From Fidelibacterota bacterium (GTDB lineage Bacteria > Fidelibacterota > Marinisomatia > Marinisomatales > TCS56), in assembly GCA_043822705.1 (NCBI GenBank), contig JBDRBK010000154.1, forward strand, positions 1 through 44,224: a stretch of DNA of 44,224 nucleotides, written 5' to 3'. How positions within the stretch are numbered: position 1 is the first letter of the stretch; every line of letters starts with the position of its first letter. Position numbers: made by a program. Below, piece by piece: positions 33,001 to 44,224 of the stretch.

Positions 33001-36000
33001 GGCTTGATCACAGATTTATGCGTAGCTGAAAACAAAATATTTCTTATTGAAGAACCTGAAAATGATATTCATCCTAAGGCACTCAAATTGCTTTTAGATT
33101 TAATTATTGAAAAATCAGTTTTTTATTTCTACTCACTCCAATATTGTAATGAAGCATTTGGGCGCTTTTGAACAAACAAAAGTGTTTTCTGTTACCAACG
33201 AAAAATATGATGAAAAACGACCAGCATTGTTTCTATCGGAAATGAAAGAAATACAAAACAACCCGATCGAAAGAAGACAAATATTAGAAGATTTAGGATA
33301 CGATCTCTTTGATTTCGATTTATGGAAAGGTTGGTTGTTTTTAGAGGAATCATCTGCTGAAGTATTGATACGAGATTATTTTATTAAATGGTGCGTTCCA
33401 CAACTCAAGTACAAACTACGAACCTTTTCCGCTGGATCAAGCAGTAAGGTCAAATCAAAGTTCGAAGATTTTAATCGCTTATTTGTTTTTCTTCATCTTG
33501 AGCCAACATATAAAAACAAGGTTTGGGTCTATATTGATTCCGGTGAAATTGAAGATGATATTATTTTAAAAATGAAAGAAAAGTATTCCGCTTCAGGATG
33601 GTCGGTGGAACAATTTGGACAATTTTCTGAACATGATTTCGAAAAATATTACCCTGTAGTTTTTGAGCCCGAGGTAAAAAGAGTTTTATCTATTACGGAC
33701 AAGCAACAAAAGAAAAAAGAAAAGGCTATTCTCCTTGAAAGTGTAAAAGATTGGATAAACGAAAATCCCGCCGAAGCTGAAATTGAATTCAAAGAAAGTG
33801 CATCCGAAATAATTAAAATTCTAAAAATGATAAATAAAAAACTATCTTAGATTTTCAGTGTTCTCCGTGACATTTGTGCCTTAGTATTTAATACTTACGC
33901 CGGTTCGAACTTGGCCGTAAAATGCCGCAGGAACGGCGGTTGCTCGGTGATCCGATAGCCGGGAATTTTTTCCTTTTTATCGAAGACTTCTTTCGCCACT
34001 TCCAGAACATAATCAATGTGGCTCTGGGTGTGGGTGCGGCGCGGCAGGGCCAGGCGTACCAGTTCCATGGCACCGGGCGTTTCTTTGCCGGTCTTGTGGT
34101 CCACCTTGCCGAACATGACCGAACCGATCTCGACCGTGCGGATGCCGCCGGTGCGGTACAGTTCCACCGACAGGGCCTGGCCGGGATACTGCAACGGCGG
34201 TATCCAGGGCAGCAGCGCCTTGGCATCGATATAGATGGCGTGACCGCCGGGTGGCTGCACGATCGGGTAACCCAGGCGGGTAAGTCCGTCGCCCAGGTAT
34301 TTGGCCTCGGAAATGCGGTACAGCAGGTAATCTTCGTCGAGCACTTCTTCCAGCCCCACCGCGATTGCTTCCAGGTCGCGGCCGGCCAGGCCGCCATAAG
34401 TCGGGAAGCCTTCGGTCAGGATCAGCAGATCTTTTTCCTGCCGGGCCAGGTCGCCTTCATTGGTGCAGAGAAAACCGCCGATATTGGCCATTCCGTCTTT
34501 CTTGGCGCTCATGGTGCAGCCGTCGCCGTAGCTGAACATTTCCTGCACGATTTCCCGCACTGATGTATTCTCGTAGCCCTTTTCCCGCTGTTTGATAAAA
34601 AAGGCGTTCTCGGCAAAGCGGCAGGCATCGAAATACAGCGGAATGCCGTACTTATTGAGCAGGGCACGTGTGGCTTTGATATTCGCCATCGATACCGGCT
34701 GGCCGCCGCCGGAATTATTGGTCACCGTCAACATGCAGAGCGGTATTTTTTCTACGCCGACTCGTTTAATCAGGGCCTCCAGTTTTTCCAGGTCCATATT
34801 GCCCTTGAATGGATGGAGGCAGGACGGGTCGCGGCCTTCGTCGATCACCAGATCCACGGCCTGGGCGCCGCGATATTCCACATTGGCGCGGGTGGTATCA
34901 AAATGCGTGTTGTTGGGCACGACGTCGCCTTCCCGGCACATCACCGAGAACAGGATTCGTTCCGCCGCCCGGCCCTGATGGGTCGGAATCACGTGGGTAA
35001 AACCGAAAATCTTTTTTACCGCCGCCTCGAAACGCTGATAACTGACACTGCCGGCATAGGATTCGTCACCGCGCATGATCGCGGCCCATTGTTCCGAGCT
35101 CATGGCGCCGGTACCGCTGTCGGTCAATAAATCGATCAGCACATTTTGAGCCTCGATCTTGAACAGGTTATAATGCGCCTCCCGCAGGTATTCTTCCCGC
35201 TCGATCGCCGTGGTCATGCGAATCGGCTGGACGGATTTAATGATGAATGGTTCGATTACTGTTCGAAACTGCGGTCTATCCGACATATCTATACCTCTTT
35301 GAAGAAATTGATCGGATCAAAATTAAGCCTGGCACAATTCAGTTAGAAATCATTTGGCGGCACGGTCATGCCGCGGATAAACAAAAAAGCCCCCGTAGGC
35401 CGGAGGCTTATTGGCTAATTTTAATGCTCGGCGTTATTCAACCATCTCGCTGCCGCCGGCCAGATCTTCCAGTTTATACTCGCCGGCTTTTTCCATCTGG
35501 CGAGCCGCCTGGACGATCGTTTTGCGGGCCTTGTCGATCTCACGTTTGGCCACCGCGCCTTCGACCGGTTCGAACATGGCCTGTTTTTTCTGCGGCAGGC
35601 TTTCCAGAACATGATTGACGATATCCTCGTCCATTCCTTTCATGGCCATGGCGATCGTGTCCAGCTCGACCGAGTTCATCAGGTCGCGTAACAGTCCATC
35701 GGGGAAAATTTCAAAAATATCCTCAAAGGTCAGATAGTGTTTTTTCACCGCCCGCGCCAGATCGGGATCTTCGTTGGTGATCGCTTCCAGATATTTCCGT
35801 TCGTCTTCCGGATCCATCTCGCCTAAAATATCGGCAATATCTTTGCCGCCACCGCGGGAGAAATTCACCGTCCGCGGCAGGAAATGCGACTTATCCTCCA
35901 GGTCGCGGGCCACATCGACAACGCCTTCCAGAGGAATATCGACCAGGTTACCCATATCGATCAGGACCCGGCCTTTGGTCTCGGCGTCCAGGCGGCCCAG

Positions 36001-42000: not shown

Positions 42001-44224
42001 AGGCGCCCCGGATAAAAGTAGTCAGGGTCTTGGTTTCGCCGCTCCAGTTCTTGCGAAATACAAAGTCGACTTTGACAAAATCGGCCCGGCGGCCGCCGAT
42101 ATTCTTGATTTCGCCGGCGAATACAATATTGCCCTGCTTATCCTTGGTTTCGTTAATATTGCCGACCAGCACACAGTTAGCGGAATATTTCTTGCCGGCA
42201 TCGCGGTCGGCGGTACCAGCGGCGGTGTACTTGGGTTCGGCCAGTTTGGGCATCGGCGGCGGTGAATAGGAATCACGAATCTGCTCAGGCACATATTCCT
42301 GGGTTTCTTCCGAAACTACATTGTCGATAATACGAACAATCGTGCTGCGATCGATAACCAGATAACCCAGCAGCGTCTCGACTTTCAGGGTTTTTTCATC
42401 CTGGTACACGACTTTACCAAATACGGTACTGCCGTTTTTCAGAATTATTTCCTTGGAATAGATCGCCAGCGGGTTGACCCACATCTTGCTTTGAGCTTTC
42501 AGATTTTCCACCTCGGAATTGAGATGTTTAATCTCGGCCGCCATTTTCTTCAATTCAAAGCTGAGCTCGTTGATAATGTAATTCTGATCGGTCCCGCCGA
42601 CTGGTGTCGCACCGGTTGCCGGCACTTCGGCAGCGGTTACTTTCTGTGCCGCAACTTTGACAGCCAGGGTGATTTCCAGGTCCTTGATATTATCATTACC
42701 AACCGTGATGCGCTGATTGGCACTGCCCCGGCCGCCGCCATCAATCTTGATGGTATAGGCACCGGGCAGAACATCGTCGAACTCAAATTCTCCCCCTTTC
42801 CGGCGGCCTTTGCCGGTTTCGGCACGGCCGACCGCGGTCTCCTCGGCATTAAGCAGCAGGATTGGTGTTTCCTCTACTTTCTCACCTTTGGGATCGACCA
42901 CAACGCCGGAAATTGACACACCCTTAGCCCACAACACTGTGCTGAAAAGGGCGCACATGGCTGAATACAATAGGATTTTCTTCATAGTTTCCCCAGAAAC
43001 ATGATCATTTACCTCGGATTCGCAAGTCGTCGATGTTAGCGTACACCGACGAGCTAATATAACTGCGTGTAAAAACAAATGTCAAGAATTAATCCGGGGT
43101 CTTTGCAAGACCCCGGACGACTATTTATACCTATAATTAAGGTTAAGCTACTATAATGAATAGACTGCTTTATACTTGGTTTCAAGATAATCCATGAACG
43201 GTTCGGCTGACAGTTTTTCGCCGGTTATATCGACGATCAACTCGCCGGCGGTACGACGGCGGCCGACCCGATGTACCTTTTTGCGCAACCATTCCCGTAG
43301 CGGCAGGAGGTTGCCGGCGTCGATTTTTCCGTCCAGGCCGGCAATTTCCTTGCGAGCCTGATTCATCATCGGTGCATTGTACAGATTTCCCAGGGCATAG
43401 GTCGGGAAGTAACCAAAACCGCCGAAGGACCAGTGCACATCCTGCAGAACGCCGTTGGCGTCGGAATCGGGACGGATACCGAGGTATTCCTCCATCTTGT
43501 TATCCCACAGCCGGGGCAGCTCCGCGATCGGAAGGCGATCGTTGATGACCATGCGCTCAATTTCGAATCGCAGCATGATGTGCAGGTTGTAGGTGGCCTC
43601 ATCGGCATCGACCCGGATCAGCGTCGGGGCCACGGTGTTGATCGCCCGGTAAAAGCGCTCCAGTGAAACAGACCCCAGGTTTTCCGGGAAAAGCTTTTGC
43701 AGTTTCGGGTAGTAGTGGGACCAGAACGGCTGACTCAGGCCGACCAGGTTCTCCCACAACCGCGACTGGCTTTCGTGGATTCCATACGATACGGCATCAC
43801 AAAATGGTGTGCCGTACCAGTCCGTATCGAGGCCCTGTTCGTAGAGGGCGTGCCCGCCCTCGTGGATCGTACTGGACAGCGCCGAGGCCAGGTTGTTTTT
43901 ATTGAACCGGGTGGTAATCCGCACGTCGGTGGGGTGAAAGCTGGTGGTAAACGGATGGGCTGATTTGTCCTGGCGGCCACGTTTGAAGTCGTAGCCCATA
44001 TCCTTCAGCACTTCCACGCCGAAAGTCCATTGCCGGTCCACGGCATAATCCTTTTCCAGTAGCTGGCGCTCGGTGTCGACCGGCGATTCGGCAATTTTCC
44101 GCACCAGCGGTACCAGCCGCACCTTGACCGCCTCGAACAGCCGGGTCACTTCCGCCGAGGTCATTCCCGGTTCGAAATAATCCAGCAATGTGTCGTAGGG
44201 TGTGGTCTTGACCCCCAGATAATC

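What a model noticed while it worked through the whole genome (the two positions that open the first line are those of the whole stretch)
35434..42985. Flagellum-independent rotor-stator gene module (FliG-like + truncated FliF-like + MotAB + three envelope proteins) conse [...]
Seven co-directional genes g02312-g02306 encode a CarboxypepD_reg-domain secreted protein, two signal-peptide TPR proteins, a MotA/MotB pair, a 527-aa FliF-like protein that keeps only the FliF C-terminal ring part, a long periplasmic coiled coil, a second membrane helix and the FliG-binding tail, and a divergent FliG (21% identical to the flagellar FliG g02896). It is separate from the flagellar genes (C27, C28, C55, C63, C101, C208). 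It is a flagellum-independent envelope-spanning motor module of this order; its output is unknown.
Evidence so far: Gene order kept on one strand in 80 of 80 loci of other Marinimicrobia genomes with a g02307 relative; all seven genes in 54, shorter runs where contigs end or a gene falls under the BLAST cut. In one sample of 101 Marinisomatales genomes the FliF-like protein is found in 68 (E<=1e-40), FlhA in 16; 60 of the 68 carriers have no FlhA, 8 of the 16 FlhA genomes lack the module. Tables: FliG_C in 145 of 232 genomes of the order, FHIPEP, FliP, FlgI, flagellin in 17-20 of 232; FliG_C within two genes of MotB_plug in 115 genomes of the order, 600 in all. MotB-like g02308 keeps the membrane Asp (FADMMTLLL); g02307 ends in a FliF-like FliG-binding helix (TATRIVREWM against ASRLIRSWL of g02897). 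Sourc [...]
(Added by a program. Inside this text positions count along the whole contig: contig position 1 is position 1 of the stretch shown here. "Call 12" and the like, gene names such as g00115 and contig names such as C1 are that model's own, and its searches are not shown. The text may have been shortened before it was handed on; [...] marks where a part breaks off. The agent that wrote the report below was given it as the finding of a first reader that could run no searches.)

Follow-up and report, generated by a model that had tools for sequence, protein, structure and literature searches.

The report
Flagellar-type motor core without flagellum
Seven tightly packed genes of an ocean bacterium encode the engine of a flagellar motor (an ion-driven stator and a cut-down rotor) together with outer-membrane proteins, and most relatives keep the set although they show no flagellar genes, so it probably powers an undescribed machine in the cell envelope.

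Summary
On the minus strand, 42985-35434, seven genes lie 1-58 bases apart or overlap. They encode a secreted CarboxypepD_reg protein, a CpoB-like TPR protein, a predicted outer-membrane barrel with a long helix and TPR, MotA, MotB, an RBM3-only FliF-like protein and a three-domain FliG-like protein.

The set is kept in the same order in all 20 distinct related loci I examined. These include other classes of the phylum (Marinimicrobia/Fidelibacterota), so it is phylum-wide, not order-wide. In the order, 97 of 145 sampled genomes carry the FliF-like gene, and 88 of those 97 show neither FlhA nor FliM.

This genome also has a separate flagellar set with its own FliF, FliG, FliM and MotAB. That allows a paralogue-by-paralogue comparison:
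- The module keeps the stator-rotor charges and the FliG-docking tail.
- It has lost the FliM-binding EHPQ motif and FliF domains RBM1 and RBM2.

Best reading: a flagellum-independent, ion-driven rotor-stator complex that delivers mechanical work to outer-envelope partners. The output is unknown.

I found no published description. The scan has noted this module before on other Marinimicrobia DNA, and a fused five-gene relative in other phyla.

The parts
43056..43085 (-). promoter-like site (TTGACA-18-TATATT, 11 of 12) just upstream of g1, after a terminator-like hairpin at 43118-43092 that ends the preceding M32 peptidase gene
   Evidence: This is a consensus match only; the number of sites in the region is not above shuffles (8 found, 6.1 expected).
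41861..42985 (-). g1: secreted 374-aa protein. Signal peptide, CarboxypepD_reg (24-107), heptad coiled coil (135-170), SH3-like stretch (174-220) and a very conserved C-terminal beta-rich domain (268-374) of no known family. It is a lipoprotein without the CarboxypepD_reg domain in other classes.
40932..41861 (-). g2: 309-aa exported protein with an N-terminal coiled coil, a Pro/Ala-rich linker and a YbgF/CpoB-like TPR end (188-301). It is the most variable member: duplicated in 7 of 16 loci and not present between g3 and g1 in L040.
   Evidence: (TIGR02795 41 bits, cut-off 90.1)
39559..40935 (-). g3: 458-aa protein. Signal peptide, about 13 predicted beta strands (44-267) forming an outer-membrane-type barrel, an 80-residue heptad helix (300-380) and a nearly invariant TPR end (384-457).
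   Evidence: AF2 mean pLDDT 70.4; Foldseek: OmpG, a designed 12-strand barrel, FapF, OMPLA; TPR designs
38765..39550 (-). MotA-like stator subunit A (261 aa) of the flagellar type. It keeps Arg and Glu of the torque interface (ARK-G..ELE, with a one-residue deletion typical of the module) and has a Gly-rich loop between TM3 and TM4.
   Evidence: (Clostridium sporogenes MotA 8ucs_C, E 1.6e-38)
38018..38752 (-). MotB-like stator subunit B (244 aa): membrane helix with the invariant Asp (FADMMTLLL), plug and an OmpA-like peptidoglycan-binding domain.
38081..38110 (-). internal promoter-like site with a perfect sigma-70 consensus (TTGACA-18-TATAAT, 12 of 12) inside the 3' part of motB, upstream of the FliF-like gene
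   Evidence: consensus match only, function not shown
36376..37959 (-). FliF-like rotor protein (527 aa). Probable signal peptide (1-24), RBM3 with collar insert (about 23-212), long helix 220-318 plus 324-367, one membrane helix (372-397), Pro-rich cytoplasmic linker (398-464), helix-turn-helix FliG-docking tail (465-499) and a Pro/Lys-rich end.
35434..36363 (-). FliG-like rotor protein (309 aa) with N, M and C domains. The N domain is about 27 residues shorter than in flagellar FliG, EHPQ is replaced by ESPR, and the torque-helix charges are kept (K242, K259/K260, E265).
35387..35409 (-). terminator-like hairpin (9 pairs, T-rich tail) 25 bases after the FliG-like stop codon: the probable end of the transcription unit
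   Evidence: pattern match only

Best explanation
The seven genes form one operon for a flagellar-type, ion-driven rotor-stator complex that works without a flagellum.

Shown:
- The domain make-up of all seven proteins.
- The conservation of the gene set as a unit across the phylum.
- Its presence in genomes without FlhA or FliM.
- Its coexistence here with a separate flagellar gene set.

Inferred:
- MotA/MotB units, anchored to peptidoglycan by the OmpA-like domain of MotB and opened by release of the plug, conduct ions past the invariant Asp. They push with the conserved Arg/Glu loop of MotA on the charged helix of the FliG-like C domain.
- The FliG-like protein is held by its N domain on the helix-turn-helix tail of the FliF-like protein. 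The FliF-like RBM3 domain assembles into a ring in the periplasm, as RBM3 does in the flagellar S-ring.
- Because RBM1 and RBM2, FliM binding and all export and axial parts are missing, the ring carries no rod. Force passes instead through the single membrane helix and the roughly 150-residue helical stalk to the periplasmic ring.
- From there it reaches the three coiled-coil envelope proteins: g1 (a lipoprotein in most lineages), the CpoB-like g2 and the outer-membrane barrel g3.
- The output is mechanical work at the outer envelope. What is moved or energised there is not known.
For: Unit and selection:
- Same order and strand in 20 of 20 distinct loci, down to 36% FliG-like identity. All seven genes were found in 19 of the 20.
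- The seven families are the only ones shared by 16 of 16 loci; no flanking family occurs in more than 5.
- dN/dS was 0.03-0.19 in the 15 of 21 comparisons where dS could be computed; dS is saturated.

Independence from the flagellum:
- In the order, 97 of 145 genomes have the FliF-like gene, and 88 of these 97 lack both FlhA and FliM. The FlhA and FliM lists name the same 15 genomes.
- G000 has four MotAB pairs. One lies beside FliM on C28, so the flagellum has a stator of its own.
- Module FliG-like and flagellar FliG of the phylum form two clades split by a branch of 1.47 substitutions per site, support 1.0.

Rotor-stator contacts kept:
- MotA shows 'RK-G..(E/D)LE' in 15 of 15 sequences, and the MotB Asp is present in 15 of 15.
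- In the FliG-like protein, K242, G243 and E265 are invariant and residue 259 is always basic.
- MotA's best solved relative is a flagellar MotA (E 1.6e-38). TolQ and ExbB models score only E 0.001-0.04.

Ring domain:
- In the AF2 model, residues 22-212 align to Salmonella FliF 228-438 (RBM3 and collar). VIA gives Z 14.2 with rmsd 1.9 A over 102 residues (8zdt_A), and up to Z 15.7 with rmsd 8.1 A over 130 (8z5v_A).
- The 18 best Foldseek matches (E 1e-7 to 8e-6) are all FliF; the next has E 0.08.

Docking:
- The module tail and the flagellar FliF tails align without gaps over about 40 residues, sharing (N/Q)PE.A(S/T)R(I/L)(I/V)R.W(L/M).
- The complex prediction of the FliG-like N domain with the tail gave weak support: score 0.45, best of 3 controls 0.00, runs agree in at least 87% of contacts, partner pLDDT at least 62. 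The mark was reached by 116 of 157 solved complexes and 2 of 215 mismatches, but at 0.60 or under by only 18 of those 157 and by both mismatches. FliF-FliG complexes are solved, so this shows likeness and may come from memory.

Loss of flagellar interfaces:
- No PF01514 match in the FliF-like protein.
- EHPQT is invariant in 13 of 13 flagellar FliGs, whereas in 17 of 17 module proteins only the Glu is kept.

Envelope partners:
- g3 is predicted as a barrel plus helix plus TPR.
- g1, g2 and g3 each carry a heptad helix.
Against: - No experiment and no image exists. Rotation, ring formation and any contact between the FliF-like ring and g1-g3 are inferred.
- The geometry is open. In the AF2 monomer, helices 280-318 and 324-367 pair as a hairpin. 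The stalk may therefore not span the periplasm, and its length is not fixed: the distance from the end of RBM3 to the membrane helix is 124-204 residues, median 164, in 43 sequences.
- The FliG-like N domain lacks about 27 residues of the flagellar one, and the docking prediction is only weak.
- The torque helix of the order's variant has a 4-residue deletion and lost the second acidic residue.
- None of the four motor proteins reaches the NCBIfam equivalog cut-offs.
- The FliF-like sequence alone has no significant match to solved FliF (E 0.047).
- Nine carriers in the order, and this genome, also have flagellar genes, so a link to the flagellum cannot be excluded there.
Confidence: 0.55

Rival explanations
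1. A Tol-Pal-like, non-rotary envelope system. The MotAB pair acts as an ion-driven force generator that tethers or remodels the outer membrane and peptidoglycan, for example at division, through the CpoB-like g2, the OmpA-like domain of MotB and the barrel g3. The FliF-like and FliG-like proteins serve as a static scaffold or regulator rather than a turning ring.
For: - The TPR end of g2 matches tol_pal_ybgF/CpoB best (E 2.4e-10).
- The parts list (peptidoglycan binder, outer-membrane barrel, periplasmic coiled coils) resembles trans-envelope tethers.
- Apart from four MotA genes, G000 shows only one MotA_ExbB-family gene, the ExbB of the ExbBD-TonB cluster at 10098-12860.
Against: - The g2 match is far below the family cut-off (41 bits against 90.1).
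- g2 is the least conserved member and is missing from the module in L040.
- G000 has TolB_N-like genes, one on C37 beside another YbgF-like TPR gene, so a Tol-Pal-type set seems to exist apart from the module.
- MotA is of the flagellar type, not the TolQ/ExbB type.
- The charges that flagellar stators and FliG use for torque are conserved across the phylum. A mere scaffold would not need them.
Confidence: 0.2
2. An accessory or alternative part of the true flagellar motor, such as a second rotor-stator set or a periplasmic scaffold like the TPR proteins PflA/PflB or FlcA. In non-flagellated lineages it would be kept only as a leftover.
For: - This genome and 9 other carriers in the order have flagellar genes. 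In family f21, 10 of 10 genomes have both FlhA and the FliF-like gene.
- All four motor proteins are homologues of flagellar parts.
- g2 has a faint match to the flagellar collar protein FlcA (E 0.048).
Against: - 88 of 97 carriers in the order lack FlhA and FliM, yet the genes are intact and under purifying selection.
- 6 of 15 flagellated genomes of the order lack the module.
- The module never lies beside flagellar genes in the 16 loci compared or in this 44-kb window.
- The FliF-like protein lacks the domains that house the export gate, and the FliG-like protein lacks the FliM-binding motif.
- The flagellar FliF, FliG, FliM and MotAB are all present separately.
Confidence: 0.08
3. A decaying remnant of flagellar genes with no present function.
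For: The proteins score well below the equivalog cut-offs of the flagellar families, and parts of FliF and FliG have been lost.
Against: - All seven reading frames are open in every locus examined.
- Order is fixed across classes.
- dN is far below dS.
- Functional residues are invariant.
- Three non-flagellar genes are as conserved as the motor genes.
- Fragments of six of the seven genes occur in an RNA library. This is weak evidence.
Confidence: 0.02

Closest known systems
Torque-generating core of the bacterial flagellar motor (FliF MS-ring, FliG, MotA5B2/PomA5B2 stator)
   Same: - Homologous MotA, MotB, FliG (three domains) and the FliF RBM3 with collar.
- The MotB Asp, plug and peptidoglycan-binding domain are present.
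- The MotA Arg/Glu and the FliG torque-helix charges are kept.
- The FliF C-terminal helix pair with the conserved Trp is kept.
   Different: - No RBM1 or RBM2, and probably no first membrane helix.
- A 124-204-residue helical stalk lies between RBM3 and the membrane helix.
- FliG lacks EHPQ and about 27 residues of its N domain.
- No FliM, FlhA or other export and axial genes in most carriers.
- Three outer-envelope proteins are encoded in their place.
Five-gene cassette with a fused FliF-FliG protein, MotAB, an outer-membrane barrel and a TPR lipoprotein, noted earlier by this scan in Bacteroidota, Balneolota, Fibrobacterota and Bdellovibrio-like bacteria (unpublished AI notes, e1-2478127 and others)
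   Same: The same parts list: an RBM3-type FliF piece, FliG, MotA, MotB, a barrel and TPR. The Atlas lists 610-aa (Balneolota) and 680-aa (Bacteroidota) FliG_C/FliG_M clusters among the structural neighbours of the FliG-like protein (TM 0.52 and 0.47 by query).
   Different: - Here FliF-like and FliG-like are separate genes, the barrel and TPR are fused in g3, and g1 and g2 are extra.
- Common descent was not tested. I could not obtain sequences of the fused forms: searches among longer proteins found none, which is weak evidence. None of 21 FliF-like relatives tested carries FliG domains.
Tol-Pal system with CpoB/YbgF; ExbBD-TonB
   Same: An ion-driven 5:2-type inner-membrane motor family coupled to outer-membrane partners. 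The module has a CpoB-like coiled coil plus TPR protein (g2) and an OmpA-like peptidoglycan binder.
   Different: - The stator is of the flagellar type, with a plug.
- No TolA/TonB-like, TolB or Pal gene lies in the module.
- FliF-like and FliG-like proteins are present.
GldLM (type IX secretion and gliding motor) and AglRQS-Glt (Myxococcus gliding)
   Same: The idea is the same: a proton-driven inner-membrane motor whose periplasmic arm carries energy to an outer-membrane complex. This comparison rests on my own knowledge of those systems.
   Different: No Pfam or NCBIfam match to GldL, GldM or Agl proteins. There are only faint TPR matches to GltC and GltE (E 0.004 and 0.05, far below cut-off). 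Those systems use no FliG or FliF ring.
Other RBM ring proteins (SctJ/YscJ of injectisomes, SpoIIIAG/AH of sporulation)
   Same: They share the ring-building alpha-beta-beta-alpha-beta fold.
   Different: All 18 best fold matches are FliF RBM3 with its collar, not SctJ or SpoIIIAG. The module has a FliG partner and a stator, which the others lack.

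Membership tests
FliF (flagellar MS-ring protein; TIGR00206, PF01514 + PF08345) | RBM3/collar domain (PF08345) | tested here: met
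   PF08345 scores 34.1 bits against a cut-off of 23.8. AF2 model residues 22-212 align to Salmonella FliF 228-438, Z 14.2 with rmsd 1.9 A over 102 residues.
FliF (flagellar MS-ring protein; TIGR00206, PF01514 + PF08345) | RBM1 and RBM2 (PF01514), which surround the export gate | tested here: not met
   No PF01514 match at E up to 0.1. RBM3 starts about 25 residues after the N-terminus, which leaves no room. TIGR00206 scores 34.1 bits against a cut-off of 129.75.
FliF (flagellar MS-ring protein; TIGR00206, PF01514 + PF08345) | Two membrane helices flanking the periplasmic part | tested here: inconclusive
   The C-terminal helix 372-397 is clear. The N-terminal hydrophobic run is short (10-20 residues) and is followed by a conserved small residue plus Gln, as in cleaved signal peptides. 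No signal-peptide predictor was available.
FliF (flagellar MS-ring protein; TIGR00206, PF01514 + PF08345) | C-terminal FliG-binding helices | tested here: met
   Gap-free alignment with 12 flagellar FliF tails of the phylum, with shared PE.A(S/T)R(I/L)(I/V)R.W(L/M). The complex prediction gave weak support: 0.45 against 0.00 for the best control.
FliG (flagellar rotor/switch protein; TIGR00207) | N, M and C domains | tested here: met
   PF14842 44.1, PF14841 38.8 and PF01706 71.3 bits, all over the cut-offs. The N domain matches only profile positions 2-65 of 104 and is about 27 residues shorter than in flagellar FliG.
FliG (flagellar rotor/switch protein; TIGR00207) | EHPQ(R/T) motif of the M domain that binds FliM | tested here: not met
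   ESPRV in the window. Only the Glu is invariant in 17 module proteins, whereas EHPQT is present in 13 of 13 flagellar FliGs of the phylum.
FliG (flagellar rotor/switch protein; TIGR00207) | Charged residues of the torque helix. The E. coli numbering (K264, R281, D288, D289, R297) is taken from PMC12505986 and from recall. | tested here: met
   K242 is invariant, residue 259 is always basic and E265 is invariant. The second acidic residue is lost in the order's variant through a 4-residue deletion but is kept in other classes (LEDE).
FliG (flagellar rotor/switch protein; TIGR00207) | Equivalog score | tested here: not met
   111.4 bits against a cut-off of 226.7. The module proteins form a separate clade from the flagellar FliG of the phylum.
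Flagellar-type stator MotAB/PomAB | MotA with the MotA_ExbB channel domain and the Arg/Glu torque loop | tested here: met
   PF01618 scores 93.6 bits. The best solved relatives are flagellar MotA and PomA (E 1.6e-38 to 1.7e-17). RK-G..(E/D)LE is present in 15 of 15, with a one-residue deletion. The equivalog cut-offs are not reached (MotP 173.5 against 394).
Flagellar-type stator MotAB/PomAB | MotB with the membrane Asp, plug and OmpA-like peptidoglycan-binding domain | tested here: met
   PF13677 62.3 bits and PF00691 49.1 bits. The Asp is invariant in 15 of 15. The protein aligns to C. sporogenes MotB and Vibrio PomB.
Bacterial flagellum as a system | Co-occurrence with the export apparatus (FlhA) and the C-ring (FliM) | tested here: not met
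   88 of 97 carriers in the order have neither, and the positive controls rang in 4 known flagellates. Genomes are 77-100% complete, so single absences are soft. Rod, hook and filament genes were not surveyed across relatives.
Tol-Pal / CpoB | TolQ/TolR-type motor, TolA, TolB, Pal and CpoB at equivalog level | tested here: not met
   MotA against TolQ and ExbB models scores E 0.001-0.04. g2 against tol_pal_ybgF scores 41 bits against a cut-off of 90.1. No TolA, TolB or Pal domain occurs in the module.
GldLM / type IX secretion motor | GldL and GldM homologues | tested here: inconclusive
   No such family appears among the Pfam or NCBIfam matches of the seven proteins at E up to 0.1. No dedicated search was made.

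The most novel reading that the evidence does not exclude
The module is an ancient rotary nanomachine in its own right. A ring of RBM3-only FliF-like subunits, turned by flagellar-type stators through a FliG-like ring, transmits torque through a helical stalk to an outer-membrane barrel complex. It does this without any type III export apparatus, rod, hook or filament. It would then be a sister of the flagellar motor, with fused relatives in other phyla. It would also show that the rotor-stator pair can exist and be useful without the secretion system, which bears on what the flagellar motor was before it was a flagellum.
Probability: 0.3. Interest if true: 0.9.

Novelty: new variant of a known kind. 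Interest (0 to 1): 0.78.

Why it matters
FliG, FliF and flagellar-type MotAB are known only as parts of the flagellum. Here they form a conserved operon in an abundant ocean phylum, with outer-membrane partners, and mostly in genomes without other flagellar genes. That would be a new use of the best-studied bacterial rotary engine.

It offers a natural minimal rotor: one ring domain, and no switch or export gate. Such a rotor is useful for structural and single-molecule work on torque generation.

It also makes an old question testable: can the rotor-stator pair function apart from the type III export apparatus, and so could it have evolved apart from it?

This genome is especially useful because it holds both systems. 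Paralogues can therefore be compared in one cell background.

Tried and rejected
- Fused forms. Searches among longer proteins with the FliG-like protein and with its alignment found nothing. This is weak evidence, since long proteins crowd out relatives. None of 21 FliF-like relatives tested has FliG domains. I therefore could not test common descent with the fused cassette of other phyla.
- g1 C-terminal domain. It has no Pfam family and no solved relative by profile. Its 2330 relatives carry only 'hypothetical' or 'carboxypeptidase regulatory-like' names.
- Stalk as a fixed ruler. Rejected, because the length varies from 124 to 204 residues.
- Tol-Pal replacement. Not supported, because TolB_N-like genes exist elsewhere in G000, one beside a YbgF-like gene.
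- Expression. One groundwater metatranscriptome run holds 8 short contigs (111-181 bases, 0-11 differences) on g1 to g6, and one of them bridges g1 and g2. DNA carry-over could not be excluded and no silent stretch could be laid, so this is only a hint.
- Flanking genes. They are lineage-specific and unrelated: M32 peptidase, beta-eliminating lyase, baeRF, small TPR proteins.
- Literature. I found no description in four full-text searches. I also read passages of PMC12505986 and PMC13277936. Supplements were not read.
- Scripts. A treekit run gave no answer, and FastTree was used instead.
- dN/dS. dS is saturated, so the ratios are only qualitative.

Full report
WHAT IS THERE. The minus strand between 42985 and 35434 holds seven reading frames. 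Neighbours overlap by 1 or 4 bases or lie 8-58 bases apart.

Pfam places them as follows, all above the gathering scores:
- g1: CarboxypepD_reg.
- g2 and g3: TPR families.
- MotA: MotA_ExbB.
- MotB: MotB_plug plus OmpA.
- FliF-like: YscJ_FliF_C only (residues 48-211).
- FliG-like: FliG_N, FliG_M and FliG_C.

None of the four motor proteins reaches the NCBIfam equivalog cut-offs: FliG 111 bits against 227, FliF 34 against 130, MotP 174 against 394, MotD 136 against 283. They are therefore diverged relatives, not ordinary flagellar genes.

A terminator-like hairpin and an 11-of-12 promoter-like site precede g1. A terminator-like hairpin follows the FliG-like gene. A perfect sigma-70 consensus lies inside motB, ahead of the FliF-like gene. 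These are pattern matches only.

The rest of the 44-kb window holds housekeeping genes and no flagellar gene.

THE PROTEINS. An AlphaFold2 model of the FliF-like protein was built from an alignment of 44 sequences (mean pLDDT 73). It shows these parts in order:
- an N-terminal hydrophobic helix;
- an alpha-beta-beta ... beta-beta-alpha-beta domain with a poorly modelled insert (27-212);
- a helix 220-318 and a helix 324-367;
- a membrane helix 372-397;
- a Pro-rich linker;
- two short helices 465-499.

Foldseek's 18 best matches (E 1e-7 to 8e-6) are all the RBM3/collar part of FliF, and the next match has E 0.08. VIA-align places model residues 22-212 on Salmonella FliF 228-438. The score is Z 14.2 with rmsd 1.9 A over 102 residues for 8zdt_A, and up to Z 15.7 with rmsd 8.1 A over 130 residues for 8z5v_A.

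The N-terminal hydrophobic run is short and is followed by a conserved small residue plus Gln in nearly all of 44 relatives. That pattern fits a cleaved signal peptide, so the protein probably has one membrane helix and not two. No predictor was available to confirm this.

The first half of the long helix is rich in Glu, Arg, Lys and Gln and has a poor heptad pattern. The second half has a better one. In the monomer model, residues 280-369 form a hairpin. The distance from RBM3 to the membrane helix varies between 124 and 204 residues. Whether the helix spans the periplasm is therefore open.

The g3 model (mean pLDDT 70) has about 13 strands (44-267), an 80-residue helix and a TPR end. Its fold matches are OmpG, a designed 12-strand barrel, FapF and OMPLA for the barrel, and TPR designs for the end.

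g1 has a heptad helix, an SH3-like stretch and a very conserved C-terminal domain with no family and no solved relative. In other classes it starts with a lipoprotein signal instead of the CarboxypepD_reg domain.

g2 has a coiled coil and a CpoB/YbgF-like TPR end, far below that family's cut-off.

CONSERVATION. Seven close loci came from the search for related loci, and I cut out fourteen more around genome-search hits. Two of the 21 are the same place, which leaves 20 distinct loci.
- In all 20 the genes lie in the same order on one strand, down to 36% identity of the FliG-like protein.
- All seven genes were found in 19. In two of those, g1 is cut by the contig end.
- In L040 no g2 lies between g3 and g1.

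I clustered all ORFs of 16 loci:
- The seven families are the only ones present in 16 of 16.
- No flanking family occurs in more than 5 loci.
- g2 is duplicated in 7 loci.

Against three close relatives, dN is far below dS: the ratio is 0.03-0.19 in the 15 of 21 comparisons where dS could be computed, and dS is saturated.

A phmmer pass over 1.84 billion representatives found only 183 FliF-like proteins at E up to 0.001. None of the 21 I tested carries FliG domains.

INDEPENDENCE FROM THE FLAGELLUM. I used one sample of 301 genomes of the phylum throughout.
- The FliF-like protein is found in 191 (E up to 1e-5), FlhA in 68, FliM in 66 and FliG_C in 222.
- Within the order (145 genomes without G000), 97 have the FliF-like gene.
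- 15 have FlhA, and the same 15 have FliM. Nine have both the module and the flagellar markers.
- So 88 of 97 carriers show neither marker, and 6 of 15 flagellated genomes lack the module.
- A family of about 1-Mb genomes lacks it altogether (0 of 30).
- Phylum-wide, at least 154 of the 233 FlhA-negative genomes still have a FliG_C gene.
- FliG_C scores are bimodal: about 111-152 bits for flagellar FliG and about 70-107 bits for the module protein.
- Absences in draft genomes are soft, but the pattern is consistent across families.

THIS GENOME HAS BOTH SYSTEMS. G000 is 93% complete with 6% contamination. It holds:
- FlhA and FliP on C27;
- MotA, MotB and FliM on C28;
- flagellin on C55;
- FliF and FliG on C208;
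- two further MotAB pairs on C100 and C153.

The flagellum therefore has a rotor and a stator of its own. The flagellar FliG of G000 groups with flagellar FliGs of other members of the phylum. The module proteins form a separate clade across a branch of 1.47 substitutions per site (support 1.0, FastTree, unrooted).

The side-by-side alignment shows the following:
- The module proteins lack about 27 residues at the end of the N domain.
- They have lost EHPQT, keeping only the Glu.
- They keep the Lys of ALKG, a basic residue at the start of the torque helix and the first acidic residue.
- Variants in other classes keep the full R...EDE...R pattern. The order's variant has a 4-residue deletion.

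Module MotAs share RK-G..(E/D)LE with a one-residue deletion, and a Gly-rich periplasmic loop. The MotB Asp is invariant.

The module tail aligns without gaps to the flagellar FliF tails, with PE.A(S/T)R(I/L)(I/V)R.W(L/M) in common.

A complex prediction of the FliG-like N domain with this tail gave weak support:
- Score 0.45, best of 3 controls 0.00.
- The runs agree in at least 87% of contacts, and the partner pLDDT is at least 62.
- The mark was reached by 116 of 157 solved complexes and 2 of 215 mismatches. At 0.60 or under it was reached by only 18 of those 157 and by both mismatches.
- FliF-FliG complexes are solved, so the pass shows likeness and may come from memory.

HOW IT MOST LIKELY WORKS. 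The parts, their conservation and their phyletic pattern are shown. The mechanism is inferred.
- Peptidoglycan-anchored MotA/MotB units conduct ions and push on a ring of FliG-like protein.
- That ring is docked on the tails of a ring of FliF-like protein.
- There is no export gate, switch, rod or hook. The work is passed through the membrane helix and the helical stalk to the periplasmic RBM3 ring, and on to the coiled-coil proteins g1, g2 and g3 at the outer membrane.

I put about 0.55 on this as a whole. I put more on the rotor-stator complex itself (about 0.7) and on its independence from the flagellum (about 0.85). I put less on transmission to the outer membrane (about 0.45).

The main rival (0.2) is a non-rotary, Tol-Pal-like tether or energiser in which the FliF-like and FliG-like proteins are scaffolds. 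It is weakened in three ways:
- the stator is of the flagellar type;
- the torque charges are conserved;
- TolB-like and YbgF-like genes exist elsewhere in the genome.

A flagellar accessory role (0.08) and a dead remnant (0.02) fit the data poorly.

WHAT IS KNOWN. Four full-text searches found no description of a FliG/FliF/MotAB set outside the flagellum in these or other bacteria. I also read passages of two recent papers on stator and flagellar evolution (PMC12505986 and PMC13277936) and found none there. The stator paper treats the flagellar stators as one clade and lists only ExbBD, TolQR, AglRS and proteins of unknown function as non-flagellar relatives. Supplements were not read.

The only cultured member of the phylum is described as non-motile (PMC11652737, passages). 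I did not test whether it carries the operon.

Earlier AI notes of this scan describe the same seven- or eight-gene operon on other Marinimicrobia DNA. They also describe a five-gene cassette with a fused FliF-FliG protein in other phyla. I confirmed the first independently. For the second I have only a lead: structural neighbours of 610 and 680 residues from Balneolota and Bacteroidota in the Atlas.

VERDICT. This is a real, strongly conserved and apparently undescribed operon. It is a new variant of the flagellar rotor-stator, freed from the flagellum and joined to outer-membrane partners, and its function is unknown. Interest is high. The particular value of this window is that both systems coexist in one genome.

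Noticed in passing
window 32350-33850 (+): A low-GC island (36% against about 55% around it). It holds two overlapping ORFs (32350-33171 and 33107-33850). The first carries AAA_15/AAA_21 (OLD/AbiEii-type ATPase) domains. It looks like a frameshifted or split gene of foreign origin, possibly defence-related.
   Followed up: no
window 10098-12860 (+): An ExbB-ExbD-ExbD-TonB-TonB cluster. It holds the only MotA_ExbB-family gene of the genome besides the four MotA genes.
   Followed up: partly
G000 C106:1018-1755 (L063): A 245-aa paralogue of the conserved half of g1 (26% identity over residues 172-372), with no Pfam family. It lies beside a HEAT-repeat protein and a metallophosphoesterase, not beside motor genes.
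   Followed up: partly
L038 18271-19600 and L043 18738-19824: A second, diverged MotA-MotB pair (24-28% identity) lies about 7 kb downstream of the module in two genomes of another family.
   Followed up: no
L040 (G218:C58): In this family the module has no g2 between g3 and g1, and the FliF-like protein is longer: 546-624 aa, with matches in two pieces.
   Followed up: no
L037, L038, L043, L044, L045: In five loci of other classes a baeRF_family10 (release-factor-like) gene lies directly upstream of g1. A link to the module is not evident.
   Followed up: partly
window 740-7378 (-) and 25568-28744 (-): Two very large exported proteins with FG-GAP/He_PIG Ig and Laminin_G_3 domains. There is also a 1058-aa FG-GAP/ASPIC sensor histidine kinase next to a sigma-54 response regulator.
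   Followed up: no
G000 C27:9600-10178 and C28:8078-8401: FliP matches lie both on C27 and at the very end of C28. The two short flagellar contigs probably adjoin or overlap in the real genome.
   Followed up: no
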